Source: a virus
IMG/VR virus record: IMGVR_UViG_3300026484_000002
Coordinates: 27,282 to 91,281 of that record
Reading direction: 5' to 3' (one strand)
Length of the DNA: 64,000 nt
Shown: positions 2,787-32,835 of the stretch, piece after piece
Layout of the letters: the number at the start of each line of letters is the position of its first letter
Position numbering within the stretch: position 1 is the stretch's first letter
Made by a program: the position numbers and the translations under genes
Notes under the pieces: model-generated
The model's database searches: none
What the model was told of the DNA's origin: nothing
The model's input: the letters and a program-made list of their open reading frames with translations, nothing else

Positions 2787-2787
2787 C

Positions 2788-2820: not shown

Positions 2821-2860
2821 GCCCATAACGGATAATATCCGAACATCAACCTAAAAAGGA

Positions 2861-3193
2861 ATGTATTTAATGGATACAATTAATCAACATCAAGCAGGTG
2901 AAAACCCTTTAGATTACTGGACTGACATGGCAATGTCATTGGATCGCTTAGAAGTAAATGATGACTTTAAGAAAGTTATTCTAGAAGGTTATTTTAAAGA
3001 CAAAGCAGTTAGTGGAGTAAGTATTTTAGCTAGTGATCAAGTGAAAGCTAGTGGAAGACGCACAGATGTAATGGAAGGGCTAATCGCTATAAGTTCACTA
3101 CAAGATCATTTTCAAACTATCAAAGCTATGCGTCAAGCAGCTGAAGATGAAGCTGAGTATGAAGATGAAGATGCTGAAACAGTAGAAGGATAA
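2861..3193 (+). CDS. N4 gp58-like protein
   Basis: 110 aa; FKKVILEGYFKD motif, acidic tail, synteny. Confidence 0.65.
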   Translation: MYLMDTINQHQAGENPLDYWTDMAMSLDRLEVNDDFKKVILEGYFKDKAVSGVSILASDQVKASGRRTDVMEGLIAISSLQDHFQTIKAMRQAAEDEAEYEDEDAETVEG

Positions 3194-3197
3194 TTAA

Positions 3198-15115: not shown

Positions 15116-15667
15116 ATGGCACCTTTATATAATTCTACAGGTCAAGTTAACAACGGAATGGGTGGGTTTACAAATGTTATTCCACAGCCTAGAACCTATA
15201 GCGGTGTTGGACTTTCATCATTGGATCTGCCTGCTACAGGAAATATGCCTTGGGCAGGTTATAGTAATAATACTCCTGAACTTTCTTTTTTAGACAAAAC
15301 TGAAAATTATTTTAAAAATGATTTTCTAAAACCAACTACCGAAACTGTTCGTACAGTAAATCCTGATGGAACTATATCCATGAAAACTATAGATGGTGGA
15401 TTGTTAAGCTCTGATGCTGCTAAAATAGGTCAAGGACTATATGCTGTAGGTATGGATGGCTTTAATATATATAACACTAATAAAAATTACAAATTACAGA
15501 AAAATAGATTTAATTTAATGAAAAAAGAGGCTGCAGCTAATTATGGATTAAGTGCTAAGAAGTTTAATAATGCTATTGCTGATAAAAATGCTGCAAGAGA
15601 AGCAGCTAGAGCTTCAGGGTTCAGAGTTAGAGATGTGCATTATGACACTGCACCTGTAACACTTTAA
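15116..15667 (+). CDS. N4 gp52-like ejection protein
   Basis: 183 aa, Cys-free, Gly-rich amphipathic segment, synteny. Confidence 0.55.
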   Translation: MAPLYNSTGQVNNGMGGFTNVIPQPRTYSGVGLSSLDLPATGNMPWAGYSNNTPELSFLDKTENYFKNDFLKPTTETVRTVNPDGTISMKTIDGGLLSSDAAKIGQGLYAVGMDGFNIYNTNKNYKLQKNRFNLMKKEAAANYGLSAKKFNNAIADKNAAREAARASGFRVRDVHYDTAPVTL

Positions 15668-15676: not shown

Positions 15677-17815
15677 ATGCAATCACAATTTTTAAAATAT
15701 ATGAATGATCTAAACAATCAAAATCAAAAAAGAATGGATAAAGAATACCAATATTCTCAAGATTTCTTTAAAAACAGCATGCTTCTAGATGCAAACAATA
15801 GAGCTAAATATGAAGCAGAAACAAAAGGTATGGGTCAAGCTGATAAGGTGAAGGAAGTTATGGATAGTATCACTTCTAGAACCAATAAACTTGACAATAC
15901 TAAAGCAATGGATGAAGTAAACAATATTTTTGGTCAAGCTACACAAGACAATACTCTTGATAATTATGTCAAACAAATTGATAATGACAAAAGATATAAT
16001 GATATGATGTCTGTTACAAAAGGATTGGATCCAACTAGTGAAGAAGCTGAGAAAAAACGTATTCTAGGCGATAAATATGATGATTATTTAGCTCGTACTA
16101 AAAAGATAGATTCTAACTTGGATCTATTAAATAGTAAGGCAGGCACTGGGTATGAAAATATTCTATATGGAGTTGATGCAGATACTGCAAAATCAACTGT
16201 TGCTAATGAATTGATGAATGGTGGAGTAAATCCTGTTTATGCAGAGAACCTTGCAGCATCATTATCCGTTCCTTATGTAAAAAAACCTAATGTATCTAAG
16301 CTTACTGATTTAGATAAAGCATTAATAGAACATGCAGATAAAGTAAAGAAAGACATATACAGTAATGCTAATACTTTTGAAAATGCATCATCTATCGCAA
16401 GCGGAAAAAGCACTAAAAGAGATCCAAAAGATAAAAATGGTTTTAAAAATTATTACTTAACAACTGCTCCAGTTAATGATTATAAAAACGATTATCCAGC
16501 ATTTCAAAATTATGTTATAGAAAAATTAGATGCAGAACCTTCTGTTGTTCTTGATAGATCTGTTAACGATATATATAAACAATTTAATGCTCCAGTAAAA
16601 CTAAAACTTGGAAAAGGAAAAACGAAATCTGTATACTTGCCAAAAGAAGCCCTTTATAAATATGTTACTGATAATTTAGAACCAAATATTGGTACATCTA
16701 ATGAAATTAAAAATATAGATCCAGATACATTTGAAAAATGGAGAGAACAAAAAGCAAAAGAAATGTTCAATCAAGGTTTGATTAACGATTCTTATTCTTT
16801 AAAATCTTTAAATCTTACTCCAAAAGATGAAGTTACTAAAAAAAGTAAAATATCAGGAAAAAGCTTAACCAAGGAACAAAAATCTACCATTAAAGCTTCT
16901 AATAATCTTATAGCGAATGTATTCAGCAAATATAAAGGAGTCACAGACAAACAAATAGTTGATGACTGGCTAGGAACAAATTATAGTACATTAAAAACAG
17001 AACCAATTAAAAAAGAAGAAAATAATAATAATAGTAGCATTATAAAAAAAGCTTTTGAAAAGAAAGTTTTTAAAGAACAAGGAATTGAAAAGAAAGTTAA
17101 TAACGAAAAAGTTAACAATGAAAAAGTTAATCCATTAATTCAAGAATTAAATAGCAAAAATGGAGCTGCAAAAGTATATGATATCTTTAAAGGTACAGAA
17201 CCAAAAACTCTATTATCCTTAGTAAATAATGTAAATAATAAAGATTCTAAAAAATTGTTAAGTGCAGTAAATAGTTTTAATGTGGATCATCCATTTAAAG
17301 ATTTAAATGAATTAAAAACAGAATTAAAAGAAAGAATACTGGTTAATAAATCTAATGAAGAAACTAAAAATTATTCTTCAGAACATCCTGTATATTTTAC
17401 AAAAAAAGACAAACCATATGATTTTGATTTGCTAATGAATCAAACATTACAAAATATAAAAAATGATAAATCTATATCAAAAATGAGAGAAGGTGCATTG
17501 ATTTCTGAATTAAATAAATATTTAAGACAAAAAGATATTGCTAAATCAAAAATAGATAATAAAATACTTGATACGCTGATTAACACTGGAGCTAGTAGTG
17601 GAAAGTTTATAGCAAACACCATAAACCAACTTAAACCAAAAAATGATCAAATAGATTTATCTATTTTTGAAAAAAAAGCTATTAGGGCTAAAGAAAAAAG
17701 AAAAAGTGATGCCAAAAAAAGACATAAACAAGTAACTTCTCATAATCGTGTTGAAAAAGATTTTGAATCACTTCCATATAAAGATTTACATAAATATTTA
17801 TACAATAATAAATAG
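15677..17815 (+). CDS. N4 gp51-like ejection protein
   Basis: 712 aa, Cys-free, directly upstream of vRNAP; assignment by synteny only. Confidence 0.5.
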   Translation: MQSQFLKYMNDLNNQNQKRMDKEYQYSQDFFKNSMLLDANNRAKYEAETKGMGQADKVKEVMDSITSRTNKLDNTKAMDEVNNIFGQATQDNTLDNYVKQIDNDKRYNDMMSVTKGLDPTSEEAEKKRILGDKYDDYLARTKKIDSNLDLLNSKAGTGYENILYGVDADTAKSTVANELMNGGVNPVYAENLAASLSVPYVKKPNVSKLTDLDKALIEHADKVKKDIYSNANTFENASSIASGKSTKRDPKDKNGFKNYYLTTAPVNDYKNDYPAFQNYVIEKLDAEPSVVLDRSVNDIYKQFNAPVKLKLGKGKTKSVYLPKEALYKYVTDNLEPNIGTSNEIKNIDPDTFEKWREQKAKEMFNQGLINDSYSLKSLNLTPKDEVTKKSKISGKSLTKEQKSTIKASNNLIANVFSKYKGVTDKQIVDDWLGTNYSTLKTEPIKKEENNNNSSIIKKAFEKKVFKEQGIEKKVNNEKVNNEKVNPLIQELNSKNGAAKVYDIFKGTEPKTLLSLVNNVNNKDSKKLLSAVNSFNVDHPFKDLNELKTELKERILVNKSNEETKNYSSEHPVYFTKKDKPYDFDLLMNQTLQNIKNDKSISKMREGALISELNKYLRQKDIAKSKIDNKILDTLINTGASSGKFIANTINQLKPKNDQIDLSIFEKKAIRAKEKRKSDAKKRHKQVTSHNRVEKDFESLPYKDLHKYLYNNK

Positions 17816-17875: not shown

Positions 17876-20800
17876 ATGGCTAACTATCCTGATGACTTCA
17901 CTAAAAATACCAATAATGTACTGGATCAATTTTCCCAATTAACAGACACCTACAATACTGCTGTTGACGTTATTGGTTCTGTGCCTACTTCTACAAATAA
18001 AATCAATCATCTCCAACAAAAGAAACAACAAAAAATAGATAGACTTAATCCAGATGCTACATTGGATCTATATAATAATATGGATATATATACAAATGAA
18101 TATGGAATAACTAAAGATTCATTAAATAGCTATACTCCAGAACAGTTACAAGAAATGCTTGGTTCTAGTGTAAATGATAAAGTATATTATGACGATAAAG
18201 AAATAGGTCCATATCAAATGAAACAAGATGCTGAAGGAGAATGGAATAAAACCCCTTTTAGTGGCACTACTCAACATGTGTATGTTGCTCCTAGCAAAGA
18301 TGGTAATATGAAGTTAGGTTTAGCAGGTGTAGGCTTTAGAGAAAGATATACACCTGGTCTTGCTGCAAAAGAAGGATTGACTACAAATAAAAACTATGGT
18401 TGGGCTCCAGGGGAAAAAGGAGTAGATCCAACAAAAGAACCTTATTTAGATATAGCTCTTCCATATGACGAAGCTTCAAGATTAGAATTCCTAACACACT
18501 CAAATAAAGGACAAATTGCAAATAGAGCAGGTGGTGCTAGTGTTGCTGACTATATAAAAAATGTGAAACCAAATGTTTATGGCAAAGGAGCGAGTGAATA
18601 TACAACACAAAATGCCCCTATGTGGAATATAAATTCCAGCAATACAGATTTACCAGAGCAAGTAGTTACTCCACATATTCCTAAGTTTTTAGGTGATACT
18701 AGTACGCCTAGATCAAAAGCAATAGGTGTAATCCATGATAATGCAGAATACGAAGGTGAGCCTCTGCTAGGACAATTTGCAGATGGAGTTGCTAGAAATG
18801 CTAGAGGATTTGCTGGTGGAGTAGCGAGAGTCATTGGTGATACTGCAAAACTAGCTAATGATTTAGAAACTAGAGCCATTTATGAATCAGCAAAAAGACT
18901 TTATGATTTCAATGAGAAAGATGCAAATGAATTAGCAGATAGATTTCAATTTTTAACAAAAGAAAAACTAGATACCATGGAAAATGCTATAGCTGGTGAA
19001 GATTTTGTTACTGCTACAGCTGATGATACTAAGAAAATGGAAGAGCATCAAAAGAAAGCTTTTAAGGATGTTACTTGGTCAGATCCAAGTTCATATGGTA
19101 AAGTCAATTTACCTGAAGCATACAATATGTTTAAGACAGGTTTATCTAGCCCAGAAATGACTTTTAAATCACTAGGCTATATGCTCGGAAACCTAATAGG
19201 TCTTCCTGAAAAAGCAGCAATCAAAATGGCAGGCAAAGGAACTTTAAAAGCACTTGAGTACAATGCAAAAAAAGATGTTGCAAAAGAGATGTTAAGCAAA
19301 GCTGCCAAGACTGATAAGCTAATTGCTGCTGGAAAAATAACAACTGAAGATGCTGTAAAAAAAGGCATGACTTTATTGGATCCAGCCAAGAAAGCCATGT
19401 ATGAAAAAACTATTCAACTTAGTGACAGAGCATTAAGTAAAATTCCAATTAAAAATAAATTCAATGCATTCGTTGCAAAAAATGCAAACATACTACATCT
19501 TGGAGCTGTAACTAATGAACAGGATATGGATGATTACTACGAAAAACACGGTGAAAGAGCATCTCTACAACATGCATTATTAGGTTTTGCTGCAAATGCT
19601 GTAGGAGCAAAAATAGACTTATGGGCTGATAAAACTGCATTAATGGGAACAAAAGAAGGCTTTTCTGCATTAATTAAAAAAGCAGGTAAAACAAGAGCAC
19701 AAAAGATGCTTACAGGAGTAATTTCTGGTGCAGCAAAAATGGCAGAAGGTGGTATTGCTGAGCTTCCTGCAGAATATATTCAGAGTGGGATCCAAGCTTT
19801 CAATAATACATATAAAGATGATAATGCAGCAGAAGCTTTAACCAAAGCATTTCATGATGCAACACAAGGTGCAGCTTTCGGAGCAGCAAGTGGTATTCAT
19901 ATGGCAGGTCCTAGTGCTGGATCTAACATTATTACAAATACATTTACTGAAACTGATAGTGATAAAAGCTATGAAAATAAAATTACATCTGACACAGAAC
20001 CAACAAATGCAACTTCTGATGAACAGGCACAAGATTTAGCACTTGATAAGCTCTATACACACTTGCATGAAAAAGGAGAACCATTATCTGAAGAAGATAA
20101 ACCTTTGGCTCATGCATCAGTTGAGCGTCATTTAAACAATACTTTACAAAGTCTTGCATTAGCTGAAGAAAATATAAATGCTGAAATTGCTAAAGAAAAT
20201 CCTGATACTGAATTTATAGGTTCTCTCGAAAAAGAAAAAGAAAACCTTGAAGATAAGATTTCTATTTTACTTGATATGCGTAATCATACTGCAGAAGATG
20301 GAGTTATTTATAATAATAGACCAATAAAAGAAATAGACAATGATTTGACACAAACAATAGAACAACTCAACAATGAGCCTAAAGATCCAAAACTGATTAA
20401 GAAAAAACGACAGTTATTGTTAGAAAAATATATAGCCAGTCATCCTTTAGCAAAAAAAGCCAATGAAAATGGTGAAGATACTGAAGATTCTGAAGCAACT
20501 TTCGATACAGTATTGTCACAAAAATTATATGGAGGAGTGACCAAGGATGGATATAGAACTGGTATTGTTAATATGGTCACTCCATTGTTTGATGACAGTA
20601 TAAGTGAACATGGAAAGCGAGCTGTTAAAAATAATATAGAAAGATTTCTTGAATCTCAATCAGCCAAAGAAAAGGCAATCGAAGCAGCTAAGACTAAATT
20701 TGAAGAACAAGGAAAAGATGCAGAAGAGAATCCAACACCTGTTATAGCTAGATATTTTACTCCTACAGGTACTGAAGCTACTTTTGAATATAGAGGTATT

Positions 20801-22501
20801 GCTTCAGAAAAAACATTAGAAAAAATAAAAAAAGAAAACGAGTTCTTGCATAGTATTCTTCATTATGCAACCAATCCTGTAGAATTGGAATCTATAGTAT
20901 CTGACATTGGTTCTAATCAATCTGATAAAAATGCTCCTGATGATTTTTTTGATGCTTCAAAAGGAGAACCTAGAAGCAACCATGCTTTAGAATCTGAAGA
21001 AGGAATAAATACTAATTTTGAAAATAAAAAAACACATATACTAAATAATACTGAAGATACTTCTGAAACACAAAACACTATAGAGAATAAAATCACAGAA
21101 CTAAATGACTTATTAGGCAATAAACAACACGAGAACTTCAGTAAACAGCTAGAAGAAACCATTGAATCAATTCCTTCTTTTTCAACTGATATACTAAACC
21201 AACTAAAAGATACAAGAGGACTTAAAAGTTATGTTACAAATGTAAAAAATGGTATAAACCTTATGCCAAAGCTTTTAACACGACTCACAAAAGAACCAAA
21301 TGAGCAAGGTACTCCTACTTGGAACGCCAGAGCTTATAGAGCAGTTACTGCATTAGAAAAGTATGCCAAGGCTGCTAATAAAATAATAGAAAGTGAAGCA
21401 TATCAAAAAATACAACAAAATGCTTTTCAGGAAAAGTTGCCCAATATAGAACAGACAGCATCTAATACTAACACTAGTATGAATGAAGTTTCTTTTGACG
21501 CAGATGAAGCTCCTTTTGATATTTCTAATATTGATATAAACACAGAACCAAAAGAAAACAATAATATTAGTACGCAAAACAACACAGTTGAGATTGGATC
21601 CAATGAAACAAAAAAAGAAATTGGATCAAACGAGACAACAGATAGTAAACTTAACGAAACAAGCAATAACAAAGATTCCAAAGAAGAAGTAGAAACAACT
21701 CCTAAAATGGATAGTACTGGATCCAATGACTATAAAATTCCAGATATGGAAACAAAACAATCAAGTGAGGCATCATTAAGTAATGAAGCACCATCAAATG
21801 TTGTCAGTAAAGTAAAAGAACAACAGCAACCCAATAAACAAACCAAACAAGCTGAGCAGCCAAGTAAAGAAAAGGTTGAATCAAATAACAAATCTAATAA
21901 AGAAGCAAATAATAAAGAAGTAAAAGAAGTAAATGATAAAGAAGAATCAAAGAACGTCAAAACAGTAGATAACCATGGTCCGATTGAAAGAAAAAACAAA
22001 TCTGATACTTTTTACAAAAATGATACAACATATAAAGATCCTATAAAACAGAAGGAAAAACAATTAGTAAATAGTGTTGTCGGTAAATTGCAGACAATAT
22101 TGAATAACTACGAAAAGAAATACAAAGAAGTAGAAACTACTTTAGGCACCGACATTAAAACAATAAAAGCAGAAAGAGCTAAGCGTACTAAATCACTAAA
22201 AGAATTTACTGGAATTAAAGATATTGCATCTAGAGGAAAAGTTAAAAAGAAATATTTTTACGAAGACTTAAGTATAACTATTGAAGACTTATTAGAAGAT
22301 ATAGATGAGAATAGTTATCTTGGAAAAAATATAATAGAAGAAGTAAATAAAATTCGACCTAATAGTAAAATAGGTATTGAAATACTTGAAAATAATAGTA
22401 TCTCTAAAACAATAGAAGAATCACTAACTAATATGCTTGATAAAGAGATCATAAGTGAAGATGTGATAAACTCTCTAGAAGAAATAACAGGATGTAACTA
22501 A
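17876..22501 (+). CDS. virion RNA polymerase part 1 (N-terminal ejection/membrane region)
   Basis: 1541 aa; Gly/Ala-rich AEGGIAELPAEYIQSG segment typical of ejection proteins; only Cys is penultimate residue. Confidence 0.65.
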   Translation: MANYPDDFTKNTNNVLDQFSQLTDTYNTAVDVIGSVPTSTNKINHLQQKKQQKIDRLNPDATLDLYNNMDIYTNEYGITKDSLNSYTPEQLQEMLGSSVNDKVYYDDKEIGPYQMKQDAEGEWNKTPFSGTTQHVYVAPSKDGNMKLGLAGVGFRERYTPGLAAKEGLTTNKNYGWAPGEKGVDPTKEPYLDIALPYDEASRLEFLTHSNKGQIANRAGGASVADYIKNVKPNVYGKGASEYTTQNAPMWNINSSNTDLPEQVVTPHIPKFLGDTSTPRSKAIGVIHDNAEYEGEPLLGQFADGVARNARGFAGGVARVIGDTAKLANDLETRAIYESAKRLYDFNEKDANELADRFQFLTKEKLDTMENAIAGEDFVTATADDTKKMEEHQKKAFKDVTWSDPSSYGKVNLPEAYNMFKTGLSSPEMTFKSLGYMLGNLIGLPEKAAIKMAGKGTLKALEYNAKKDVAKEMLSKAAKTDKLIAAGKITTEDAVKKGMTLLDPAKKAMYEKTIQLSDRALSKIPIKNKFNAFVAKNANILHLGAVTNEQDMDDYYEKHGERASLQHALLGFAANAVGAKIDLWADKTALMGTKEGFSALIKKAGKTRAQKMLTGVISGAAKMAEGGIAELPAEYIQSGIQAFNNTYKDDNAAEALTKAFHDATQGAAFGAASGIHMAGPSAGSNIITNTFTETDSDKSYENKITSDTEPTNATSDEQAQDLALDKLYTHLHEKGEPLSEEDKPLAHASVERHLNNTLQSLALAEENINAEIAKENPDTEFIGSLEKEKENLEDKISILLDMRNHTAEDGVIYNNRPIKEIDNDLTQTIEQLNNEPKDPKLIKKKRQLLLEKYIASHPLAKKANENGEDTEDSEATFDTVLSQKLYGGVTKDGYRTGIVNMVTPLFDDSISEHGKRAVKNNIERFLESQSAKEKAIEAAKTKFEEQGKDAEENPTPVIARYFTPTGTEATFEYRGIASEKTLEKIKKENEFLHSILHYATNPVELESIVSDIGSNQSDKNAPDDFFDASKGEPRSNHALESEEGINTNFENKKTHILNNTEDTSETQNTIENKITELNDLLGNKQHENFSKQLEETIESIPSFSTDILNQLKDTRGLKSYVTNVKNGINLMPKLLTRLTKEPNEQGTPTWNARAYRAVTALEKYAKAANKIIESEAYQKIQQNAFQEKLPNIEQTASNTNTSMNEVSFDADEAPFDISNIDINTEPKENNNISTQNNTVEIGSNETKKEIGSNETTDSKLNETSNNKDSKEEVETTPKMDSTGSNDYKIPDMETKQSSEASLSNEAPSNVVSKVKEQQQPNKQTKQAEQPSKEKVESNNKSNKEANNKEVKEVNDKEESKNVKTVDNHGPIERKNKSDTFYKNDTTYKDPIKQKEKQLVNSVVGKLQTILNNYEKKYKEVETTLGTDIKTIKAERAKRTKSLKEFTGIKDIASRGKVKKKYFYEDLSITIEDLLEDIDENSYLGKNIIEEVNKIRPNSKIGIEILENNSISKTIEESLTNMLDKEIISEDVINSLEEITGCN

Positions 22502-25500
22502 TGAGTTGTAATATAAAAGCAGGACATATAATAGAAGGTATAGGAAAATATTTAAAAGATGGTGATAATGCTACAGCAAATAAGTTGCAAAATGCATTAA
22601 GAGATACTACAAATTTATCTACTCACTTTACTATCGACTTTAAAAGTAAAAGTAAGTTAGATGATTATTCTAAAGAATATGACAGTAATAGCAACAACCT
22701 TACTACTACAGAACTTCACATAAACAATTCAATAAGTAATTTCATTGAAAAAGCTGTGGATCTAATTCCTAGTGTGGATAAAACGCTTCCATCTATTGAA
22801 GGTGAAATTTCACAAGGATGGCAAAGTGTTATCTCTTATTTTATTCGACCTGAAACAATAAAATCAACAGATAAATATGGAACTACAAAAGAAAAAATTA
22901 TTACTAGACTTGATCCTGATGTTCAAAGAGCAGTATCTTTAGTTACTTCTGAATGGTTAAACAATGATGCATTAACAGGCATTTCTGAACTAAGAGGTGA
23001 TGATGGAGTTAGAGCTCTGCTTGGTATGGGGACAAAAGATATCGTTACTAAAACTGAAAGAGATGCTGTAAGAGATATTGACGGTTATGTTGGTGAAGCT
23101 GCTAGGCAAATGGGTAATAAAATCTACAGCATGTTAGGCATAAGAGCAAAAGCAAATTCTCCACAAATAAATAATAAACTGATTGAAAATACATTAAAAG
23201 TAGAATTAGGTTTGTTGGCTCTAAAAACATTGGAATACAATGGAGATATATCATTGAGCAAAAAAGACATTATACTGAACGAAGAAGTTATTAGATCCCA
23301 AGTGTCAGTATATCAATTCAACAATAAACATAATAACAACATTAATCTAAATACTCCTAATGGGGTTCTTCCTTTGTCAATAAATGACAAATATAATGAT
23401 ATCAAATTTAGTAAAATATTTACTGATAAGGTAAATGAAGTAATCAACAATAAAAGAATTGCAGGGATTTATACTGATCCAAAAGAAGCAATACCATCTT
23501 ATGATGAAATAAAAAATAATGGTGTAACTGGAATACTAGGTAATATAGTCAGTGAGGCACATAAGAATGCTGTACAAAATTCTAGTAGTACCGCCTATGA
23601 ATTTAAACATGGGTTTATTAAAGGTGTAGAGTATGTAGAAAAAGCCCTTAAAAAAGCTATGGGGTATAAAGATGAAGCTAAAACTACCAAAGGACTAAGA
23701 GAAGCCACTAGAGGTAAAAATTTAGCCATAGATATGCAGTATGATAATTTAATGAATGCATATAATACTGTAGGTTTGAGCAAAAAAATGTATGCTAAAT
23801 GGGAAGTTATTACTAATAATAGATTTATGATTGATAGCAACCAACTTAATTGGCAAGATAAAAAAATGCATAGACAAAGTGTATTTTTTGAACCTGTTGT
23901 GGTTACTGAAGAAAATAAAAATGATTTCTATATGATGTTAGGTCAATCTTTTGATTTAGATATAGATAAACATTCTCCTGATGTGGTCAATAAAGCTGTT
24001 GAAGATTTGTTTAAGGATATTGAAAAAAATACAAAATTATCAGTTACTAAAAGAACTAAAAAAAGTTTAGACTCTTATTATAATAGTAAAGATTACAAAA
24101 AAGATATTGAAACATTATTTAAATACATAGTTGATAATTACAACAGTAGTGAGCCTGAACATGCATTAAGTGGTGCAGTTGAGCTTCTGGGTTGGATGCA
24201 CGAAACTAAAGCAAGTAGACCATATACTACTCAATCTATGATAGAGACTGATGCTATTACTTCTGGATATGCAATCAAAGGCTTGATGTTTCCATTTCAT
24301 GATAATAAAGAAGAAATTAACTGGAGTGAATTTGAACGCACAGGAATATTTACTGCTGATGCAGAAATTACTGATTATGGAGAATGGAAAGATAATGAAG
24401 ACAATAAAGATTCTTATGAAGTTCCAGCAGAAATGCTTACTGAAAAATTACAAGCATTATACACAGAAGATAATACAAAAGAAATTTCAGACATTATAAA
24501 ATTAATTGACAAGAAAGCTAAATTTGATAAAGATGGAGAACTAGTCTCTATATCTCGTAACTTTATGAAGAATCCTTTTATGGTTCTAAACTATGGTAGT
24601 GCTATTAAATCTATCATTAGAGCTGTTAGTAAACATGCTGAAGATGAGTTCTATCAAACTTTAGATGCACTTTTCAACAGTAAAGAAAATAGCAATAGAA
24701 AAGAACTACAAACTAGTGTTTTAAATGCAATAGCAACTATAGCTAAAAGAATGAATCCTATCTTTGATGTAGATGGTGAAATTATAGGATTTGATAGAAC
24801 CAAAGCTAATTCTACATATAAATCTATTATCAATAGATTTAAACACGAAGGCTTAGAATTTGAACTTACTTCACAAGAAGCTACAGCTCTAAGAGAAAGC
24901 ATATCAGATTTTATAGGAGAACCACTAACAAAAACATTTAAAGAAAAATATGGTAGATTTATAGAATTAACTACAACAATTAATGAATCTATGGTTGCTC
25001 AATTTAGAATAGCAAATGAAGTAATTGAAAAAGAAATAGAAAAACTTCACCAAGAAAAATTAAAAGATGCTAGTGGTAATGAAAAACTTGTAACTCCTAT
25101 GACTGATAAAGAGTATCAAGAAATAGTACAAAGTGTAGCCAATATTCTGCCTGTTGTAAATACAGCATTGGATCTGGTTGAAGGTGGTAAAGCTCCATTA
25201 TTGATAGCAGAATTAAAAGCTATAGATAATAGAGAAGTATGGGGAAATACTAGTACTAGTGGTTATGTCCGCAGCAAGTTCACTAAAAACACAAAAGAGT
25301 CAGATGTTTATATTAATAGTGCTCCTGCACAAGTTAAGAGATTATTAGAAGCATATTCTTCTGGTTCTGTAATACCTATTCATTTCTTTGATGGTAGTAT
25401 TCAAGCCAAATTATTAGCTAAGCTAAAAGCTCTTGGAGTACATGATGCCAACTTCTCTCCTATAAATATGACTATAGAAGTAACTAAAGCGTATAATGAA

Positions 25501-25998
25501 ATATTTTGGGAATTAGCTAGAGAATATAGTTTAGCAAAAGAAATTAGAGAAAGTTATTTAAATAGCTTAACCGCATTAGATGATGATATTGTTACAGCAT
25601 TAAACAGTAAATACTCAGAAACATTGAAGGATAGTTCTAAGATCCCATATACAAAGACTTTAAGTAAATTAAACAAGCAATTAGAAAATGTACATATAGA
25701 AGCTGAAAATAAAAGAGAGAAGATATTTACTACTCCTGTAGTAGTTAATCAAGCTTATTATAACAATGGCACTGAAAGTGCAGCATATATACCTAATAAA
25801 AATGAATACACTAAACAAACTATAGATGAAGATCTTGTAAACAATGCTGCTGACAAATTAAAACGATATAATAATATATCACTTGAAAATAATGCTGATA
25901 TACCAACTGATATGACGCAAACGCAAGCTTTGATTAGTGATAAAGATGCTAAAATAGCTATAAATAATGTTATAGAAAATAATAATAAGGAATGTTAA
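22501..25998 (+). CDS. virion RNA polymerase part 2 (single-subunit catalytic domain)
   Basis: Motif A ETDAITSG (~24250), motif B RNFMKNPFMVLNYGS (24556-24600), IHFFDG, motif C VHDA (25441); size similar to N4 mini-vRNAP. Confidence 0.9.
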   Translation: MSCNIKAGHIIEGIGKYLKDGDNATANKLQNALRDTTNLSTHFTIDFKSKSKLDDYSKEYDSNSNNLTTTELHINNSISNFIEKAVDLIPSVDKTLPSIEGEISQGWQSVISYFIRPETIKSTDKYGTTKEKIITRLDPDVQRAVSLVTSEWLNNDALTGISELRGDDGVRALLGMGTKDIVTKTERDAVRDIDGYVGEAARQMGNKIYSMLGIRAKANSPQINNKLIENTLKVELGLLALKTLEYNGDISLSKKDIILNEEVIRSQVSVYQFNNKHNNNINLNTPNGVLPLSINDKYNDIKFSKIFTDKVNEVINNKRIAGIYTDPKEAIPSYDEIKNNGVTGILGNIVSEAHKNAVQNSSSTAYEFKHGFIKGVEYVEKALKKAMGYKDEAKTTKGLREATRGKNLAIDMQYDNLMNAYNTVGLSKKMYAKWEVITNNRFMIDSNQLNWQDKKMHRQSVFFEPVVVTEENKNDFYMMLGQSFDLDIDKHSPDVVNKAVEDLFKDIEKNTKLSVTKRTKKSLDSYYNSKDYKKDIETLFKYIVDNYNSSEPEHALSGAVELLGWMHETKASRPYTTQSMIETDAITSGYAIKGLMFPFHDNKEEINWSEFERTGIFTADAEITDYGEWKDNEDNKDSYEVPAEMLTEKLQALYTEDNTKEISDIIKLIDKKAKFDKDGELVSISRNFMKNPFMVLNYGSAIKSIIRAVSKHAEDEFYQTLDALFNSKENSNRKELQTSVLNAIATIAKRMNPIFDVDGEIIGFDRTKANSTYKSIINRFKHEGLEFELTSQEATALRESISDFIGEPLTKTFKEKYGRFIELTTTINESMVAQFRIANEVIEKEIEKLHQEKLKDASGNEKLVTPMTDKEYQEIVQSVANILPVVNTALDLVEGGKAPLLIAELKAIDNREVWGNTSTSGYVRSKFTKNTKESDVYINSAPAQVKRLLEAYSSGSVIPIHFFDGSIQAKLLAKLKALGVHDANFSPINMTIEVTKAYNEIFWELAREYSLAKEIRESYLNSLTALDDDIVTALNSKYSETLKDSSKIPYTKTLSKLNKQLENVHIEAENKREKIFTTPVVVNQAYYNNGTESAAYIPNKNEYTKQTIDEDLVNNAADKLKRYNNISLENNADIPTDMTQTQALISDKDAKIAINNVIENNNKEC

Positions 25999-28900
25999 AT
26001 GAAATGTACTATATACGCTTTAGGTGAATACCTTGATGAGAAAGAAGATCTGCCAAAAGTCATAAAAGAATTAAGAAAATTAGATAAGTCAGATAAGTAT
26101 TTTCCTGACAGTGAATACAAAAATTTAGCAAAACAAGCAATATTGGATCACAACCAAGCTTATCAGCTTATGGAAGATCTTGATGGTAGATTTAGATATG
26201 AATACGAGAACCAATACCATGTTGTAGATATTAAAAATATAGATATAAATAACAATAAAAATGAATTAAATATAGTTCTAGCAGATAATACTACTATCAA
26301 ATATAAGATAGATAATAAAAACCTAAAAGCTATTAATCATCCTTTTTATTCAAGAGATCTTGAGTTGCAATGGAATGATGTTGTTAGCTCACCTATTGAG
26401 CTTTTATTTAATGGGGTTGATGCAAAAAGTAAAAATCTAGATAATATTATAGAAGGAAAAGAACTCCTTGATGGTAATATTGAGGCAATTCAAACAGAGT
26501 TAAGTAAGTTAGATAGAATAGCTCCTAACAGTTCATGGGATCAAGCTCATAGCAATCATTTAAAAGAAGTAATAAGTCGCATAAGTAGATCTGCTGACGA
26601 ATTAAAAACAGTACAGATAAAAGTAACTAAAAATTTAGTTGAAAATCTAAAAGAACCATTGGGTAGCTATAATACAAAAAGTAGAACTATCCAAGTTGCT
26701 ACAGCAGAAGCAATGACTAAATTTGGAATGAGCAATGAAGAAACATTGGCTCATGAATATCTTCATGCAGTATTAGATATTTTATTCAATAAGCAATTAG
26801 GTGTTATGGGTGAAGATATAAAAAATGATTTACGAAAATTATATGTACAAGCTAAAAAGAATATAACCTGGAAAGATTTAATGCCTGCTAATGAACTACA
26901 CAGTAAAGCAGCAGAAAATAAAGCTAAAGAAATATACGATTATATTTTTATTGGTAAAATTGGAGATAATAGTGTTGAAGATGCAGAAGTAAGATTAATG
27001 GAATTTCTAGTTTATGGTATGACCAATAAAGAGTTAAAATCAGCCATAGATAAAATATCATTAAAAGTCAAACCTGTGAAAGCTAAGTCTTCTGGTTTAT
27101 CTGGCATCTTTGAATATTTAATGGAAAAATTACAAGATTTAGTTTTTAAAATTAAAACCAAAACAAATAGAAGTGATAATGTAGGGTCAGAACTTACAAG
27201 ATTGGTTTATAAGCTTGGAACAATAAATAAAATGTATGCTAAAACTATTGAGAACAATAAAAACTTACCATTAGATGAAAAAATATTCTCATCTGTAGAT
27301 AAGGTTTTTAGTAAAATGGATAAAGAATTAGGCAAAAAAGTTGAGTCTATAACTAATGATTTTCTAAATGAAAAAGATGGTGATAAAATCTACACCAACG
27401 ATTTAATAACTCAAGTTAAAATGCTCAGTAAAGAACTCACAGAAGCTTATAACAAAGGCAAAATTATAAAAACTGCATGGTTATCCATTAAAGGTATATT
27501 TGTCATTATGAAAGCTTATAGATTATCTAAACAAAGTAAAAATGAAAATATTCAACGATTGTATAAAGAGTTGGATCGTTTACTTCGTAGGATGGATGAA
27601 TTTGCTGGTAAGTTTATATCTGATCTTCTCAGGGATTTCAAAGAGGGAAGAAAGACATTGGTTCAATTAGGTGACATAACTATGCAATTTAAAACCCAAT
27701 TAGATCGTGTTAAAGACATGTATTATAAAGGAACACTTAATGATATTTTTTCTGGTTTTACTAAAGTGGATCTCACTCACGAAAGACATAAAAAACTTAA
27801 CCAATCTTTAACAAATGTTATATTACGTACAGATGTACAAAGTTTCACTACCGATGTTAATGAACTTAAAAAATACATAACAGATGATAAAAAATTATCT
27901 AACACTATAAAAGAATTAGAAGATGAATTAAGTCAAGCTATGTTTAATAGCAAAACATCTACATTAAATGTAGGTCCATGGGTTGTTAATGAATGTAAAG
28001 AATTAGCTTCTTATATGATATCTAGAAAAGGAAAAAGAAATAATGCAACTAATATATCACATTTATTTGGAACCACAGAAAGTGTACCTTTAGATGAAAG
28101 CTTAAATGGACTATGGAATATTCAAAATATAGAAGAAAAAATAGATAAACTTACTAGCCTTTATGCTCTAAAAAACACAAGTATAGAAAGTAAAAAAGCA
28201 TTAATTGAATTAATTGATTTAGATAAAAATGGAGTTCAGAATTATTTAGAAATAACTAGAGGAATGGTTGCTTCAACAAAAGAAGATTGGTTCGTAACTG
28301 GATCTTTATCTGAAATGGTAAAAGGACAAATACATGAAACTCACAATAAAGATAAAGAATTAGTTTTCGCTCCTTTAAATGAAACAAATGCAATGTTAGA
28401 AGCTGGTTATTCTTTGGTTAGGAAATTAGACAAAGATGCTGGAGATATTGATATTAAAAATTATGGTTTATTTGTAACTAACACAAAAGGAGTTACAAAA
28501 AGAGTTGATGGAGCACTGGGTCTTCAAAGAATAAAAATTCCAGGACTATTGCTAAGTCAAAAAATTATGATGTCAAATAAACATTTAACTGGAAAATCTT
28601 TAGGAAGAAAAATTAGAAATGCTATAAACAATGCTAGAGTAAATGGAACAGATGGAAAAATGTATCCAGTTTATAATGATTTAGGAAATATAATTGATTA
28701 CAGATATGAATTTACATTAGATGAGGCAGAGCAATATATGGATTTGGAAACTAGAGGTTCTGAAAATTTAGCTAGAAGTTTTGGTCAAAAAAGTTCACAA
28801 ATTATTACTGATGAACACAATAAAGAATTAATAGATTTAATTATGGAAGATTCTAAAAAAATAACTAATGAAAACAAAGATCAATTCTTGCGTGTTCATG

Positions 28901-30090
28901 CAGTTGAAAATACTGATGTAAACAGTGGATCCAAGATTGATACTTTAAATGCTATGACTGAAGGTGAAGAACTATGGGGATTGCTACCAGCAGATGCTAG
29001 AAAATATATTATTGAAAAAAATATTGAAAATCTTAATGATCCAGATAACATTCCTAAAAAAGAAATTTATATCAGTAAAGATTTATTAAAACAGTTGTTT
29101 GGTTATGATGAATTAAGTATTGCAGATAGTAAATTGTTTAAAAAAATGGATGTTAAAAATAAAAATAGAATTAGAATGATAGAAGCTTGGTGGATGGATT
29201 TAATGCAAATTGCAAAAAGTATGGTAGTTGTTAAAATGCCTAGTACTATTATAGGAAATATTTTAAGTAATGCTAAATTCTTTATGTTCTCAGGAGTATC
29301 TCCTAGAAAGGCTATACAATACTTATTGTTAAGTAAAAAAAGTTTGGATAAATGGAAAAAGAATGAAAAAGCTAGACGTGATTTAGAAAGAAAAATTGAT
29401 ATAGCTACCGGATCTAAAAAAGAACAATTATTGAAACAATTAGCAGATTTAGCTTTAGAATTAAAAGATAATCCTATTATGCCATTAATTGAAGCTGGGT
29501 TATATCAAACTATTGCAGAAGATATTGACACAGAAGATTCAACTAATAGAGTTGTTCAATTATTAGATAAAACATTAGATCCAATTTATAGTAGCAATAA
29601 AACTATTGAAGATATTATTAATACAGTATTTCTTACTAAGAAAAGTACATTAGGTCAAGGATTATTACATATAATGCAAGAAAGTGACTTTCATTTTAGA
29701 TCAGCTATATATTGGGATGGTATTGAAAAAGGAATAAGTAAAGATAAGATGTTGAGAGATGTTACAGATAAATTTATTAACTATAGTCGTGTAACTAATA
29801 GTCGTTTAATTCATTGGTTGGATAGAATGGGACCAGAAGCTTTTTGGAAATATTTTGCAAATATACAAAGAGTAAATTGGAGTTTAATGAAGAAAAATAG
29901 TACTAAAGTAATTTTAGATACTACAATAAAAGAAACTGGAGTTCCTTTGTGGTCAAATGATGTATTAGATAGTTCTATTATTTATCAATTTGGTAGAAGA
30001 TTTAACCCATTAAATTGGATCAATAATACAGAAGGATTGTTAAATGCAACAGTTGATGTGCCTATTACACATTTGATTGATGGATATTAA
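25999..30090 (+). CDS. virion RNA polymerase part 3 (zincin-like domain and C-terminal region)
   Basis: ETLAHEYLHA and EFLVYGMTN; PLIEAGLYQTIAED and FINY..LDRMG motifs recalled from N4-like vRNAP C-termini. Confidence 0.75.
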   Translation: MKCTIYALGEYLDEKEDLPKVIKELRKLDKSDKYFPDSEYKNLAKQAILDHNQAYQLMEDLDGRFRYEYENQYHVVDIKNIDINNNKNELNIVLADNTTIKYKIDNKNLKAINHPFYSRDLELQWNDVVSSPIELLFNGVDAKSKNLDNIIEGKELLDGNIEAIQTELSKLDRIAPNSSWDQAHSNHLKEVISRISRSADELKTVQIKVTKNLVENLKEPLGSYNTKSRTIQVATAEAMTKFGMSNEETLAHEYLHAVLDILFNKQLGVMGEDIKNDLRKLYVQAKKNITWKDLMPANELHSKAAENKAKEIYDYIFIGKIGDNSVEDAEVRLMEFLVYGMTNKELKSAIDKISLKVKPVKAKSSGLSGIFEYLMEKLQDLVFKIKTKTNRSDNVGSELTRLVYKLGTINKMYAKTIENNKNLPLDEKIFSSVDKVFSKMDKELGKKVESITNDFLNEKDGDKIYTNDLITQVKMLSKELTEAYNKGKIIKTAWLSIKGIFVIMKAYRLSKQSKNENIQRLYKELDRLLRRMDEFAGKFISDLLRDFKEGRKTLVQLGDITMQFKTQLDRVKDMYYKGTLNDIFSGFTKVDLTHERHKKLNQSLTNVILRTDVQSFTTDVNELKKYITDDKKLSNTIKELEDELSQAMFNSKTSTLNVGPWVVNECKELASYMISRKGKRNNATNISHLFGTTESVPLDESLNGLWNIQNIEEKIDKLTSLYALKNTSIESKKALIELIDLDKNGVQNYLEITRGMVASTKEDWFVTGSLSEMVKGQIHETHNKDKELVFAPLNETNAMLEAGYSLVRKLDKDAGDIDIKNYGLFVTNTKGVTKRVDGALGLQRIKIPGLLLSQKIMMSNKHLTGKSLGRKIRNAINNARVNGTDGKMYPVYNDLGNIIDYRYEFTLDEAEQYMDLETRGSENLARSFGQKSSQIITDEHNKELIDLIMEDSKKITNENKDQFLRVHAVENTDVNSGSKIDTLNAMTEGEELWGLLPADARKYIIEKNIENLNDPDNIPKKEIYISKDLLKQLFGYDELSIADSKLFKKMDVKNKNRIRMIEAWWMDLMQIAKSMVVVKMPSTIIGNILSNAKFFMFSGVSPRKAIQYLLLSKKSLDKWKKNEKARRDLERKIDIATGSKKEQLLKQLADLALELKDNPIMPLIEAGLYQTIAEDIDTEDSTNRVVQLLDKTLDPIYSSNKTIEDIINTVFLTKKSTLGQGLLHIMQESDFHFRSAIYWDGIEKGISKDKMLRDVTDKFINYSRVTNSRLIHWLDRMGPEAFWKYFANIQRVNWSLMKKNSTKVILDTTIKETGVPLWSNDVLDSSIIYQFGRRFNPLNWINNTEGLLNATVDVPITHLIDGY

Positions 30091-30101: not shown

Positions 30102-30176
30102 TGGTTGGCAGACAGAGAATCGAACTCTGATTAAGTCGTTATGAGCGACTGGCTCTAACCATTGAGCTACCTGTCA
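30102..30176 (-). tRNA. tRNA with CAT anticodon (elongator Met or Ile2)
   Basis: Cloverleaf TGACAGG/TCTGCCA, D arm GCTC/GAGC, anticodon arm AGTCG-CTCATAA-CGACT, T arm CAGAG-TTCGATT-CTCTG, encoded CCA; one A-C mismatch in acceptor stem. Confidence 0.92.
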
Positions 30177-31535: not shown

Positions 31536-31760
31536 TTAATCTTGTTGTATGTCTGACAAGTCAGGAGCAGCATCAGCATACTGCTGACGAGCTACTTCAT
31601 CACTTGTATGTAGTTTGGCTTCTAATTCTTTTATAGCAGCATCCTTAATGTGTATAGGTGCATCTGATACACGATATCGTTCTATTTTTTTTCTTATTTC
31701 AAATTCAATCATCATATACTTTTTTATTAAATTATAAAAGAAAAGATTTGTAATCAGCAC
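31536..31760 (-). CDS. hypothetical protein (true start probably ~31715)
   Basis: ORF downstream of nrdB. Confidence 0.5.
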   Translation of the reverse strand: MLITNLFFYNLIKKYMMIEFEIRKKIERYRVSDAPIHIKDAAIKELEAKLHTSDEVARQQYADAAPDLSDIQQD

Positions 31761-32835
31761 TAGTTATTTCAGTATCAAGTTTACCTAATAAATAATTTGC
31801 ACTATCTGTTTCTTTCATTGCTACTTGTACATTTGATAAATTTGAATATTTATCTACCCATATACAAGGATTTTTTACACGTTTAACAATATTTGGTAAT
31901 TTAACATTTGTCATTACATTATACATATTGTATTGTACATATTGTTTTAGAATTGAATTGCTTACTCCAAGAAGCTGAATATGCTTATCTTTAGGATAAC
32001 AATAATCAATCCATTCTAAATCAGTTTCATATGCTTGTTGATACATAACTATTGCTTCATTTTCAATTTCTGCAAATGCTGCTATCCATTCTTGTTGCTC
32101 TTTAAGACGTTTAATTATATACACTGTCATTTGATAATGCATAATTTCATCCATAGATATTTTTGTTATTGCTTTTGCTGAGCTTTCCATTATATGATTT
32201 TCTGCAAAGGCAAATGTAGTTACAAATGATGATTTAAAAAATACTGCTTCTAAAATATTTAATGCATATAATGATAATGCTATTGATTTCATATGTTCAT
32301 ATTCATCATAATTTGGATCTTGAAGAACCATTCTACTATTCCACTCAATTGTTTTATCAAACACTTCTGCAATAGCAAGTCCACGTTTAATTATATGTTC
32401 ATTAATAATAATATCATCAAACACTTCTTTTGCATCCACAGGAAGAGCTTTCAATATTTCTGCATATGTAGGTGAATGGATAACTCCTTCATAAAAAGCA
32501 TGTTGAAACCACCATTCTTCAAGTTGAGGATTTGTAGTAATTGGACCAAAAACTTCACTTACAGATCTAGCTGCAATGCTATCTCCTACAGTTTGAAATT
32601 TAAGATTTTTATCAAATAATTCTCTGAGTTGTTCATTCATTATAGAATAATCTTCTCCATCTTTTTTATATGAAAAATCAGTTTTAAACCACATCATACC
32701 TAAAGCTTTATCTGTTCGTTTTTGGATCTCTTGTTCTATAGGAAGATCCAATCTAGCCACATTTCTACCTTTTCCTAAAAATAATGGTTCATTTGTGAAT
32801 TCTATATTATTAGTTGAAAATGTATTATATTTCAC
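31732..32835 (-). CDS. nrdB: ribonucleotide reductase class Ia beta subunit
   Basis: EGVIHSPTY, LEAVFFKSSF, DEIMH di-iron motifs; VQVAMKE..NY C-terminus. Confidence 0.93.
   Translation of the reverse strand: MKYNTFSTNNIEFTNEPLFLGKGRNVARLDLPIEQEIQKRTDKALGMMWFKTDFSYKKDGEDYSIMNEQLRELFDKNLKFQTVGDSIAARSVSEVFGPITTNPQLEEWWFQHAFYEGVIHSPTYAEILKALPVDAKEVFDDIIINEHIIKRGLAIAEVFDKTIEWNSRMVLQDPNYDEYEHMKSIALSLYALNILEAVFFKSSFVTTFAFAENHIMESSAKAITKISMDEIMHYQMTVYIIKRLKEQQEWIAAFAEIENEAIVMYQQAYETDLEWIDYCYPKDKHIQLLGVSNSILKQYVQYNMYNVMTNVKLPNIVKRVKNPCIWVDKYSNLSNVQVAMKETDSANYLLGKLDTEITSADYKSFLL

What the first reader, a model, noticed from the sequence alone, without database searches (positions are those of the whole stretch)
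17876..30090. Virion RNA polymerase split into three genes with cysteines almost only at the junction termini
Seen: 1541 + 1165 + 1363 aa ORFs, coupled by TAATG at 22499-22503 and TAA-ATG at 25996-26001, each downstream ORF with its own AGGA SD. I count only 5 Cys in 4069 aa, and 4 are at the junctions: ...ITGCN* / MSCN... and ...NKEC* / MKCT...; the fifth is C666 of part 3. The two upstream ejection-like proteins have none. Established: N4 vRNAP is one ~3500-aa Cys-free polypeptide ejected through the tail. Inference: the pieces are re-joined tail-to-head by disulfides (or a metal site) in the virion, ejected as one chain, and the free polymerase domain is released by reduction in the cytoplasm.
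Basis: partly seen in the sequence, partly recalled or inferred. Interest (0 to 1): 0.9.

Follow-up and report, generated by a model that had tools for sequence, protein, structure and literature searches.

The report
Cysteine clasps joining split virion polymerase
This distant N4-like phage makes its giant injected RNA polymerase as three proteins whose cysteines sit almost only at the ends that face each other; every split relative I examined follows the same rule and unsplit ones have no cysteine, so the pieces are probably tied head to tail by disulfide bonds into one thread for injection.

Summary
Three coupled genes (1541, 1165 and 1363 aa) encode the N-terminal, polymerase and C-terminal parts of an N4-type virion RNA polymerase. 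They hold 5 Cys in 4069 aa, and 4 lie within 3 residues of the facing termini.

The pattern is a rule, not chance:
- All 31 split junctions in 18 related loci carry a Cys in the last 1-7 residues upstream and an M-x-C or M-x-x-C start downstream. One locus is the cultured Alteromonas phage AD45-P1.
- Among 151 representative homologues (333,898 aa), 142 of 148 Cys lie within 8 residues of an end.
- Unsplit polymerases are Cys-free (36 of 37).
- Naturally fused versions have no Cys where others are split.
- Split sites differ between lineages and fall in disordered linkers.

One published cryo-EM structure, cyanophage A4 (PMC12002296), shows exactly such a facing pair, gp27 Cys1715 and gp26 Cys5, as a real disulfide.

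My best reading (about 0.65) is head-to-tail disulfide tethers that restore a continuous thread for ejection. Release by reduction in the cytoplasm is inference. A translational hop, a metal bridge and a split intein are less likely.

No paper I could search states the rule for split virion polymerases. This scan has already found the same rule on other genomes.

The parts
15116..15667 (+). Small ejection protein, in the position of N4 gp52 (183 aa, no Cys)
   Evidence: Same gene order as the N4 gp54-gp53-gp52-gp51-gp50 block. 0 Cys. Only weak PHROG hits of unknown function.
15677..17815 (+). Ejection protein, in the position of N4 gp51 (712 aa, no Cys)
   Evidence: Synteny with N4. 0 Cys. No family hit.
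17876..22501 (+). Piece A: N-terminal part of the virion RNA polymerase (1541 aa). Its only Cys is C1540, and it ends ...ITGCN*.
   Evidence: ORF and Cys count. No Pfam, PHROG or PDB sequence hit. Assigned by position and by homology to the first pieces of related loci. G1539 and C1540 are invariant in 10 homologues.
22489..22509 (+). Junction A|B: AGGA (22489-22492), TGT Cys1540 (22493-22495), TAA (22499-22501) overlapping ATG (22501-22503), TGT Cys3 of B (22507-22509)
22501..25998 (+). Piece B: polymerase domain, equivalent to N4 mini-vRNAP (1165 aa). Cys only at C3 and C1165.
   Evidence: - PHROG 2206 'virion RNA polymerase', profile 1027-1993 of 3406, E 1.9e-82.
- Pfam N4_RNAP_helical.
- Profile hit to PDB 2PO4/3C2P, E 3.5e-19.
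- AlphaFold2 model with pLDDT 83.8 and pTM 0.85; residues 1-4 and 1128-1165 have low confidence.
- Foldseek best match N4 mini-vRNAP 3C3L, E 5.5e-29, TM 0.67-0.71.
- Catalytic motif residues invariant in 40 homologues: D584, R686, K690, Y698, G699, D982.
25988..26007 (+). Junction B|C: AGGA (25988-25991), TGT Cys1165 (25993-25995), TAA (25996-25998), ATG (25999-26001), TGT Cys3 of C (26005-26007)
25999..30090 (+). Piece C: C-terminal domain of the virion RNA polymerase (1363 aa). C3 is the conserved Cys. C666 (27994-27996) is specific to this phage.
   Evidence: PHROG 2206, profile 2280-3400 of 3406, E 1.5e-115. BLASTP to N4 gp50 residues 2478-3499. M1 and C3 are invariant in 10 homologues. 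At the C666 position relatives have S, A, T, I or E.

Best explanation
The three genes are real and separately translated. They encode the NTD, the RNAP domain and the CTD of an N4-type virion RNA polymerase, cut at the two flexible inter-domain linkers. Each cut is bridged by a pair of cysteines: one within the last residues of the upstream piece and one at position 3 of the downstream piece.

In the assembled, oxidised virion these pairs most likely form A-B and B-C disulfides. The three pieces then make one quasi-linear chain that is only two strands wide for a few residues. That chain could be pulled through the tail and ejectosome channel like the single 3500-aa chain of N4.

Shown here: the split, the domain identities, the Cys rule and strong purifying selection on it, and a structural precedent in another phage.

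Inferred: that the disulfides form in this phage, that their role is continuity of the thread during ejection, and that the host's reducing cytoplasm then separates the pieces.
For: 1. Anatomy. Four of five Cys lie at the facing termini. The first piece has no N-terminal Cys and the last has no C-terminal Cys.

2. Conservation. Nine metagenomic homologues of B share only 32-35% identity, yet every full-length one has exactly C3 plus a Cys in the last 1-6 residues.

3. Junction survey. All 31 junctions in 18 distinct loci are Cys-flanked. This holds whether the polymerase is in 2, 3 or 4 pieces. It also holds for small middle pieces of about 225, 360 and 374 aa and for a 1239-aa helicase piece.

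4. Representative homologues. In 151 proteins (333,898 aa), 142 of 148 Cys lie within 8 residues of an end.
- Unsplit: 36 of 37 Cys-free.
- NTD+RNAP: 49 of 49 with only a C-terminal Cys.
- RNAP+CTD: 8 with only an N-terminal Cys.
- RNAP-only: 32 with both.
- Apparent exceptions align as truncated fragments.

5. Natural controls. Fused A+B proteins (L006/L017, L014, L021) have no Cys at the point where others are split.

6. Split sites differ by hundreds of residues between lineages, and the Cys pair follows the break.

7. The breaks lie in flexible regions.
- N4 linkers are reported in print (PMC13434306).
- The fused L021 has a T/P/G/E-rich linker there.
- The B model has low confidence at residues 1-4 and 1128-1165.

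8. Cultured case. Alteromonas phage AD45-P1 encodes 2481 aa (only Cys C2479) plus 1409 aa (only Cys C4). The stop was verified by PCR and two bands of 270 and 175 kDa were seen on gels (PMC3821669).

9. Precedent. Cryo-EM of cyanophage A4 shows a disulfide between gp27 Cys1715 and gp26 Cys5 (PMC12002296). I checked that these are the only Cys of the 1717-aa and 1114-aa proteins.

10. Background. Cys suppression in Schitoviridae ejection proteins is published, at 0.00075% in 191 polymerases (PMC11445570).
Against: - No direct evidence of a disulfide exists for this phage or for any split virion polymerase.
- Virions assemble in a reducing cytoplasm, and the 91-kb genome shows no thioredoxin, glutaredoxin, Erv1 or DsbA-type gene (the Erv1 search rang in no control genome, so it is uninformative). 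Oxidation would have to be spontaneous after lysis.
- The likely hosts are Campylobacterota such as Sulfurimonas, which live near sulfidic, low-oxygen zones.
- The termini are predicted to be flexible.
- Piece C has a fifth Cys (C666), and some relatives have a second Cys near an end.
- A4 gp26 and gp27 show no sequence similarity to these proteins, so the precedent is an analogy.
Confidence: 0.65

Rival explanations
1. Metal bridge. The two facing thiolates bind a metal ion (Zn, Cu(I) or Fe), perhaps shared between two copies of the chain. Such a bridge could form in the reducing cytoplasm and would tether the pieces without a disulfide.
For: It solves the problem of assembly in a reducing cytoplasm and of sulfidic habitats. 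Acidic or His residues often sit beside the Cys (...KHCGE...EEC...KDC).
Against: Each junction has only two thiols. No second Cys, His or Asp is conserved beside them. The one solved example is a disulfide. A two-ligand site would be weak under the pulling force of ejection.
Confidence: 0.1
2. Translational bypass. The peptidyl-tRNA(Cys) takes off at the upstream TGT and lands on the downstream TGT 9-21 nt away. A share of ribosomes would then make one fused polypeptide, as in T4 gene 60.
For: Every junction has matching Cys codons on both sides of the stop. At B|C the take-off codon is directly followed by TAA.
Against: - Every junction keeps an ATG and a Shine-Dalgarno-like AGGA/GGAG, which a hop would not need.
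- The codon after the upstream Cys is often a sense codon, and the spacing varies from 9 to 21 nt.
- A hop could use any codon and would not explain why the rest of the proteins lack Cys.
- The Alteromonas phage shows two separate polypeptides on gels, and A4 shows two chains joined by a disulfide.
Confidence: 0.04
3. The terminal Cys serve something other than joining neighbours. Possibilities are homodimers (A-A or C-C), circularisation of middle pieces, attachment to the portal or capsid, or a redox sensor.
For: Sequence alone cannot tell which thiol pairs with which. Middle pieces have two Cys that could pair with each other.
Against: The first piece never has an N-terminal Cys and the last never has a C-terminal Cys, and both sides of every break carry one. 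That is expected only if neighbours pair. Two-piece phages have one Cys per protein. A4 shows heterotypic pairing.
Confidence: 0.12
4. Relic without function. The Cys codons came with the short stop-start cassette, or with an intein or mobile element, that once split the gene.
For: Inteins insert before Cys and begin with Cys. Junction sequences look alike at orthologous sites.
Against: The Cys are kept at about 100% while the proteins have diverged to 20-35% identity, so selection acts on them. Only 0-6 residues follow the upstream Cys and only 2-3 precede the downstream one, which leaves no room for intein halves. Split sites differ between lineages.
Confidence: 0.02

Closest known systems
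Coliphage N4 gp50 and other Schitoviridae virion RNA polymerases (e.g. Pseudomonas phage DEV gp71)
   Same: Same three-domain order (NTD, T7-like RNAP, CTD). Same place after the gp52- and gp51-like ejection genes. Same avoidance of cysteine. The polymerase fold matches N4 mini-vRNAP.
   Different: N4 and DEV make one chain of about 3400-3500 aa with no Cys. Here there are three chains with Cys at the facing ends. Identity to cultured relatives is only about 22%. Piece A is longer (1541 aa) than the N4 NTD and has no detectable family hit.
Cyanopodophage A4 (Anabaena phage A-4L) ejection proteins gp27 and gp26: Cys1715-Cys5 disulfide in the pre-ejectosome (PNAS 2025, PMC12002296)
   Same: Adjacent ejection-protein genes. 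Each protein has its only Cys 3 residues from the C-terminus or 5 from the N-terminus, facing each other. Cryo-EM shows them as a disulfide.
   Different: There is no sequence similarity to A, B or C. The proteins are not described as an RNA polymerase. The paper reports one bond as a stabilising detail and does not state a rule or link it to gene splitting.
Alteromonas phages vB_AmaP_AD45-P1 to P4: vRNAP in two polypeptides (Bacteriophage 2013, PMC3821669)
   Same: An N4-related polymerase split at the RNAP|CTD boundary. The stop was verified by PCR and two polypeptides were seen. By my reading each piece has its only Cys at the facing end.
   Different: Two pieces rather than three. The authors took the cysteines as a sign that the protein is not injected, and did not note where they lie.
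T4 gene 60 translational bypass
   Same: Identical codons flank a stop codon between two reading frames.
   Different: Here each downstream frame has its own start and ribosome-binding site. The gap is short and variable, and the residue is always Cys in otherwise Cys-free proteins.

Membership tests
N4-type virion RNA polymerase (Schitoviridae gp50) | T7-like single-subunit RNAP domain with catalytic motifs A, B and C | tested here: met
   PHROG 2206 E 1.9e-82. PDB 2PO4 profile hit E 3.5e-19. Foldseek to N4 mini-vRNAP E 5.5e-29, TM about 0.7. D584, R686/K690/Y698/G699 and D982 are invariant.
N4-type virion RNA polymerase (Schitoviridae gp50) | Large C-terminal domain homologous to gp50 residues about 2100-3500 | tested here: met
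   PHROG 2206 positions 2280-3400, E 1.5e-115. BLASTP to N4 gp50 residues 2478-3499.
N4-type virion RNA polymerase (Schitoviridae gp50) | Encoded directly after the gp52- and gp51-like ejection genes in the structural module | tested here: met
   The gene order portal, gp57-like, major head, tail, plug, 183 aa, 712 aa, polymerase mirrors N4.
N4-type virion RNA polymerase (Schitoviridae gp50) | One giant polypeptide of about 3500 aa | tested here: not met
   Three ORFs with their own starts. The split is conserved in relatives.
N4-type virion RNA polymerase (Schitoviridae gp50) | Packed in the virion and ejected into the host | not testable with these tools
   Inferred from homology and synteny only.
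Head-to-tail disulfide between ejection proteins (A4 gp27-gp26 type) | Single Cys near the C-terminus of the upstream protein and near the N-terminus of the downstream protein, in otherwise Cys-free proteins | tested here: met
   One extra, non-conserved Cys (C666) in piece C.
Head-to-tail disulfide between ejection proteins (A4 gp27-gp26 type) | The two Cys are bonded in the mature virion | not testable with these tools
Head-to-tail disulfide between ejection proteins (A4 gp27-gp26 type) | Sequence homology to A4 gp26 or gp27 | tested here: not met
   BLASTP gives no hit better than E 0.5.
Programmed translational bypass (T4 gene 60 type) | Matched take-off and landing codons, with a stop directly after take-off | tested here: inconclusive
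   TGT/TGT or TGT/TGC occur at all junctions. A stop directly follows only at some of them.
Programmed translational bypass (T4 gene 60 type) | One fused polypeptide as the product | not testable with these tools
   Published gels of the Alteromonas phage show two polypeptides, which argues against it.
Split intein | Intein N- and C-fragments flanking the break | tested here: not met
   Only 0-6 residues follow the upstream Cys and 2-3 precede the downstream Cys. No intein domain in Pfam.

The most novel reading that the evidence does not exclude
The cysteine clasp is a general, modular way to build an injectable protein thread. Any protein encoded between the pieces that carries a Cys at each end is covalently strung into the chain, carried through the tail, and freed by reduction in the host. 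This would let phages add or swap injected cargo as separate genes. Candidates seen in relatives are the SF1 helicase, NADAR and DUF7831 modules and the small pieces of 225-374 aa. It would also mean that protein ejection needs an unbroken covalent chain to transmit a pulling force.
Probability: 0.35. Interest if true: 0.85.

Novelty: new variant of a known kind. Interest (0 to 1): 0.8.

Why it matters
How a 3500-residue polymerase passes through a channel of about 35 Å is an open question for N4-like phages (PMC13434306). A strict rule that every break in the chain is repaired by a terminal Cys pair says that covalent continuity of the thread is what selection protects. That is direct genetic evidence for threading as a linear chain.

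It also makes the idea testable in a cultured phage with simple gels and Cys-to-Ser mutants. It explains the only cysteines tolerated in ejection proteins that are otherwise Cys-free. It corrects the published reading that the cysteines of the Alteromonas phage polymerase mean it is not injected. A redox-released, end-to-end protein chain would also be a useful design principle for protein delivery.

Tried and rejected
- The search for related loci with protein B alone found nothing in viral contigs. The alignment-based scans worked.
- The search for homologous proteins with piece C, and with an alignment of C pieces, returned only the query itself. Candidate words were saturated, so this says nothing about absence.
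- phmmer of the pieces against N4 gp50 as a single target gave no output. BLASTP was used instead.
- A mixed alignment of fused proteins with separate A-ends and B-starts (A4) misaligned the A-ends, so I did not fold it. It still showed the T/P/G/E-rich linker of the fused L021.
There is therefore no complex model of the terminal segments and no read-level check of the stops.
- Kyte-Doolittle scan: no strongly hydrophobic segment in A, B or C.
- Searches of the phage genome for thioredoxin, glutaredoxin, Erv1/ALR and DsbA-like families found nothing. The Erv1 search also rang in no control genome, so that one is uninformative.
- Stop-codon readthrough was rejected as a conserved mechanism. B and C are in frame here with one TAA between them, but junction frames and gaps vary among relatives.
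- Split intein was rejected because there is no room for intein fragments.
Full report
**What is in the sequence**

The window is the right 64 kb of a complete 91,281-bp phage genome with direct terminal repeats. Its GC content is 29%.

Three ORFs on the + strand were confirmed:
- A, 17876-22501, 1541 aa
- B, 22501-25998, 1165 aa
- C, 25999-30090, 1363 aa

A and B overlap in TAATG (22499-22503). B and C abut as TAA-ATG (25996-26001). An AGGA lies 8 nt (A|B) or 7 nt (B|C) before each downstream ATG.

The 183-aa and 712-aa proteins just upstream have none.

The chance that at least 4 of 5 Cys fall within 3 residues of the four facing termini is about 4e-10. About 24 Cys would be expected at the window's average Cys content.

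**What the genes are**

- B matches PHROG 2206 'virion RNA polymerase' over profile positions 1027-1993 of 3406 (E 1.9e-82). C matches positions 2280-3400 (E 1.5e-115).
- B also hits Pfam N4_RNAP_helical.
- A profile of B and its homologues hits the N4 mini-vRNAP crystal structures (2PO4, 3C2P; E 3.5e-19).
- An AlphaFold2 model of B (pLDDT 83.8, pTM 0.85) superposes on N4 mini-vRNAP over its whole length (Foldseek E 5.5e-29, TM 0.67-0.71). T7 and mitochondrial RNAPs follow.
- The catalytic motif residues are invariant in 40 homologues.
- BLASTP places B at roughly N4 gp50 residues 980-2150, and C from about residue 2200 to the end.

The two breaks therefore sit close to the two domain boundaries of N4 gp50. 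A recent structural paper describes those boundaries as flexible, invisible linkers, one of them at residues 2102-2123 (PMC13434306).

A has no family hit. I assign it to the N-terminal domain by position and by homology to the first pieces of related loci.

The surrounding order is portal, gp57-like, major head, tail proteins, plug-sized protein, 183 aa, 712 aa, then the polymerase. This is the N4 order gp59 to gp50.

Cultured N4-like phages are only about 22% identical to B.

**Is the Cys pattern more than a curiosity?**

*Close homologues.* Nine metagenomic homologues of B share 32-35% identity with it. Every full-length one has exactly two Cys: C3 and one in the last 1-6 residues. Both columns are invariant in the alignment.

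*Related loci.* I fetched related loci from viral contigs, metagenomes and MAGs and read their ORFs. In 18 distinct loci I count 31 junctions. All have a Cys in the last 1-7 residues upstream and M-x-C or M-x-x-C downstream.

The rule holds for every architecture seen:
- Three pieces: window, L001, L002, L003, L013, L018, L027.
- Four pieces: the L004 type (1038+1515+374+1435 aa) and L019 (1102+1460+1239+1434 aa).
- A+B fused, followed by a small piece and then C: L006 (2393+360+1442 aa) and L034 (2605, about 225, and 1402 aa).
- Two pieces: L014, L029, L035.

The first piece never has an N-terminal Cys and the last never has a C-terminal Cys.

*Fused controls.* Where A and B are fused (L006/L017, L014, L021) there is no Cys at the corresponding place. 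In L021 that place is a Thr/Pro/Gly/Glu-rich stretch typical of a disordered linker.

*Wider survey.* An exhaustive HMMER search with B gave 351 hits, and I analysed the best 150. Including the query, the 151 proteins hold 333,898 residues and 148 Cys. Of those, 142 lie within 8 residues of an end.

Sorted by which domains each protein contains:

| Architecture | Result |
|---|---|
| Unsplit (NTD+RNAP+CTD) | 36 of 37 have no Cys |
| NTD+RNAP | 49 of 49 have only a C-terminal Cys |
| RNAP+CTD | 8 have only an N-terminal Cys |
| RNAP-only | 32 have a Cys at both ends |

The apparent exceptions align as truncated fragments of longer proteins. I could not check their contigs.

Break points differ by hundreds of residues between lineages, and some fall inside the polymerase domain itself. 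The polymerase has therefore been split at many places, and the Cys pair goes with the break each time.

The proteins have diverged to 20-35% identity while the Cys stay fixed, so the Cys are under strong purifying selection.

*A cultured case.* Alteromonas phage vB_AmaP_AD45-P1 is annotated 'potential frameshift'. It encodes 2481 aa with its only Cys at 2479 (...SKHCKQ*), followed by 1409 aa with its only Cys at 4 (MTIC...).

Its authors verified the stop by PCR and saw polypeptides of 270 and 175 kDa. They noted cysteines but took them to mean the protein is not injected (PMC3821669).

**How it most likely works**

It is published that unsplit polymerases and the other ejection proteins avoid Cys. 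The usual explanation is passage through the oxidising periplasm (PMC11445570, 0.00075% Cys in 191 polymerases). I confirmed 0 Cys in N4 gp50, gp51 and gp52.

Against that background, a Cys on each side of every break and nowhere else points to a bond between neighbours.

Cryo-EM of cyanopodophage A4 shows the C-terminal helix of gp27 inserted into gp26 and a disulfide between gp27 Cys1715 and gp26 Cys5 (PMC12002296). In the A-4L genome these are adjacent genes, and each Cys is the only one in its protein (1717 and 1114 aa).

This shows that such a pair can be a real disulfide in a virion. The A4 proteins have no detectable similarity to A, B or C, so it is a precedent by analogy.

The position of the Cys is informative. 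They sit as close to the chain ends as possible, in segments predicted to be flexible (B residues 1-4 and 1128-1165, pLDDT below 50). A disulfide there gives a chain that is double-stranded for only a few residues. In effect it replaces a peptide bond in a linker.

This fits the threading model for N4, in which subdomains unfold, pass through a tube of about 35 Å and refold in the cell.

Confidence is about 0.65 that the Cys pairs form inter-piece disulfides. Confidence is lower, about 0.5, that their purpose is ejection as one thread followed by reductive release.

**Difficulties**

- Assembly takes place in a reducing cytoplasm.
- I found no thiol oxidoreductase gene in the phage.
- The only host hints are MAG contigs from Sulfurimonas and another epsilonproteobacterium that carry related loci. 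Those organisms live near sulfidic zones. The phage does carry a class Ia ribonucleotide reductase, which needs oxygen.
- What makes the right ends find each other is unknown.

**Rivals**

*Translational hop from TGT to TGT.* This is attractive at first sight, and at B|C the take-off codon is directly followed by TAA. However:
- Every junction keeps its own ATG and ribosome-binding site.
- The codon after the upstream Cys is often a sense codon.
- The gap varies from 9 to 21 nt, and the reading frames differ between loci.
- A hop would not explain why only Cys is used, or why Cys is absent elsewhere.
- The gels and the A4 structure show separate chains.

*Metal bridge.* Possible, but each junction offers only two ligands and no further conserved ones.

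*Homotypic pairing or circularisation.* This does not explain why both sides of every break, and only those ends, carry a Cys.

*Intein or neutral relic.* Excluded by the lack of room for intein fragments and by the conservation of the Cys.

**Novelty**

The pieces are known separately: Cys-free ejected polymerases, one split polymerase in the Alteromonas phages, and one disulfide in A4. In five full-text searches I found no paper that states the rule or links terminal Cys pairs to splits of the virion polymerase.

Other agents of this scan have reported the same rule on other genomes. My counts were made independently on this phage's relatives and agree with theirs.

I class it as a new variant of a known kind.

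As a result there is no read-level check, no contig context for the representative proteins, and no model of the terminal segments together.

Noticed in passing
window, 24 sites, e.g. 753, 3298, 7127, 19377, 21595, 21718, 28926, 63569: The palindromic octamer TGGATCCA occurs 24 times against 0.69 expected from shuffles. The sites lie in coding and non-coding DNA, and four lie inside the polymerase genes. The reason is unknown. It was also flagged by another first-stage note.
   Followed up: partly
window 30102-30176 (-): A tRNA-Met (CAT) gene lies directly after the polymerase genes, at the switch from + strand to - strand genes.
   Followed up: no
window 31735-32835 (-) and 32828-35065 (-): The phage carries class Ia (oxygen-dependent) ribonucleotide reductase small and large subunits. 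This suggests infection where some oxygen is present, which bears on whether virion thiols can oxidise.
   Followed up: partly
L019:13133-16852 (+); proteins P0018, P0003, P0048: In relatives the chain carries extra modules between the polymerase and the C-terminal domain. L019 has a 1239-aa piece with an SF1 (AAA_30/UvrD_C_2) helicase and Cys at both ends. Other RNAP pieces are extended by NADAR, DUF7831 and helicase domains. These may be injected cargo.
   Followed up: partly
L034:9330-10000 (+); L004:9528-10652; L006:13117-14199: Small middle pieces of about 225, 374 and 360 aa have no family hit. Each has a Cys at position 3-4 and another 2-5 residues from its end. Their function is unknown.
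   Followed up: partly
proteins P0099, P0110, P0122, P0145 (780-850 aa): In some lineages the break lies inside the polymerase domain, about 330 residues into B, and again both ends carry Cys. The catalytic domain would then have to reassemble from two chains.
   Followed up: no
L020 (Sulfurimonas sp. MAG contig) and L021 (Epsilonproteobacteria MAG, Guaymas): The only hits in prokaryote genome bins are short contigs binned with Campylobacterota. This is a weak hint at the host group and fits the 29-44% GC of this phage clade.
   Followed up: no
window 27994-27996: The fifth Cys (C666 of piece C) is unique to this phage. Ten relatives have S, A, T, I or E there. L027 has a different extra internal Cys (C591) in its C piece.
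   Followed up: yes
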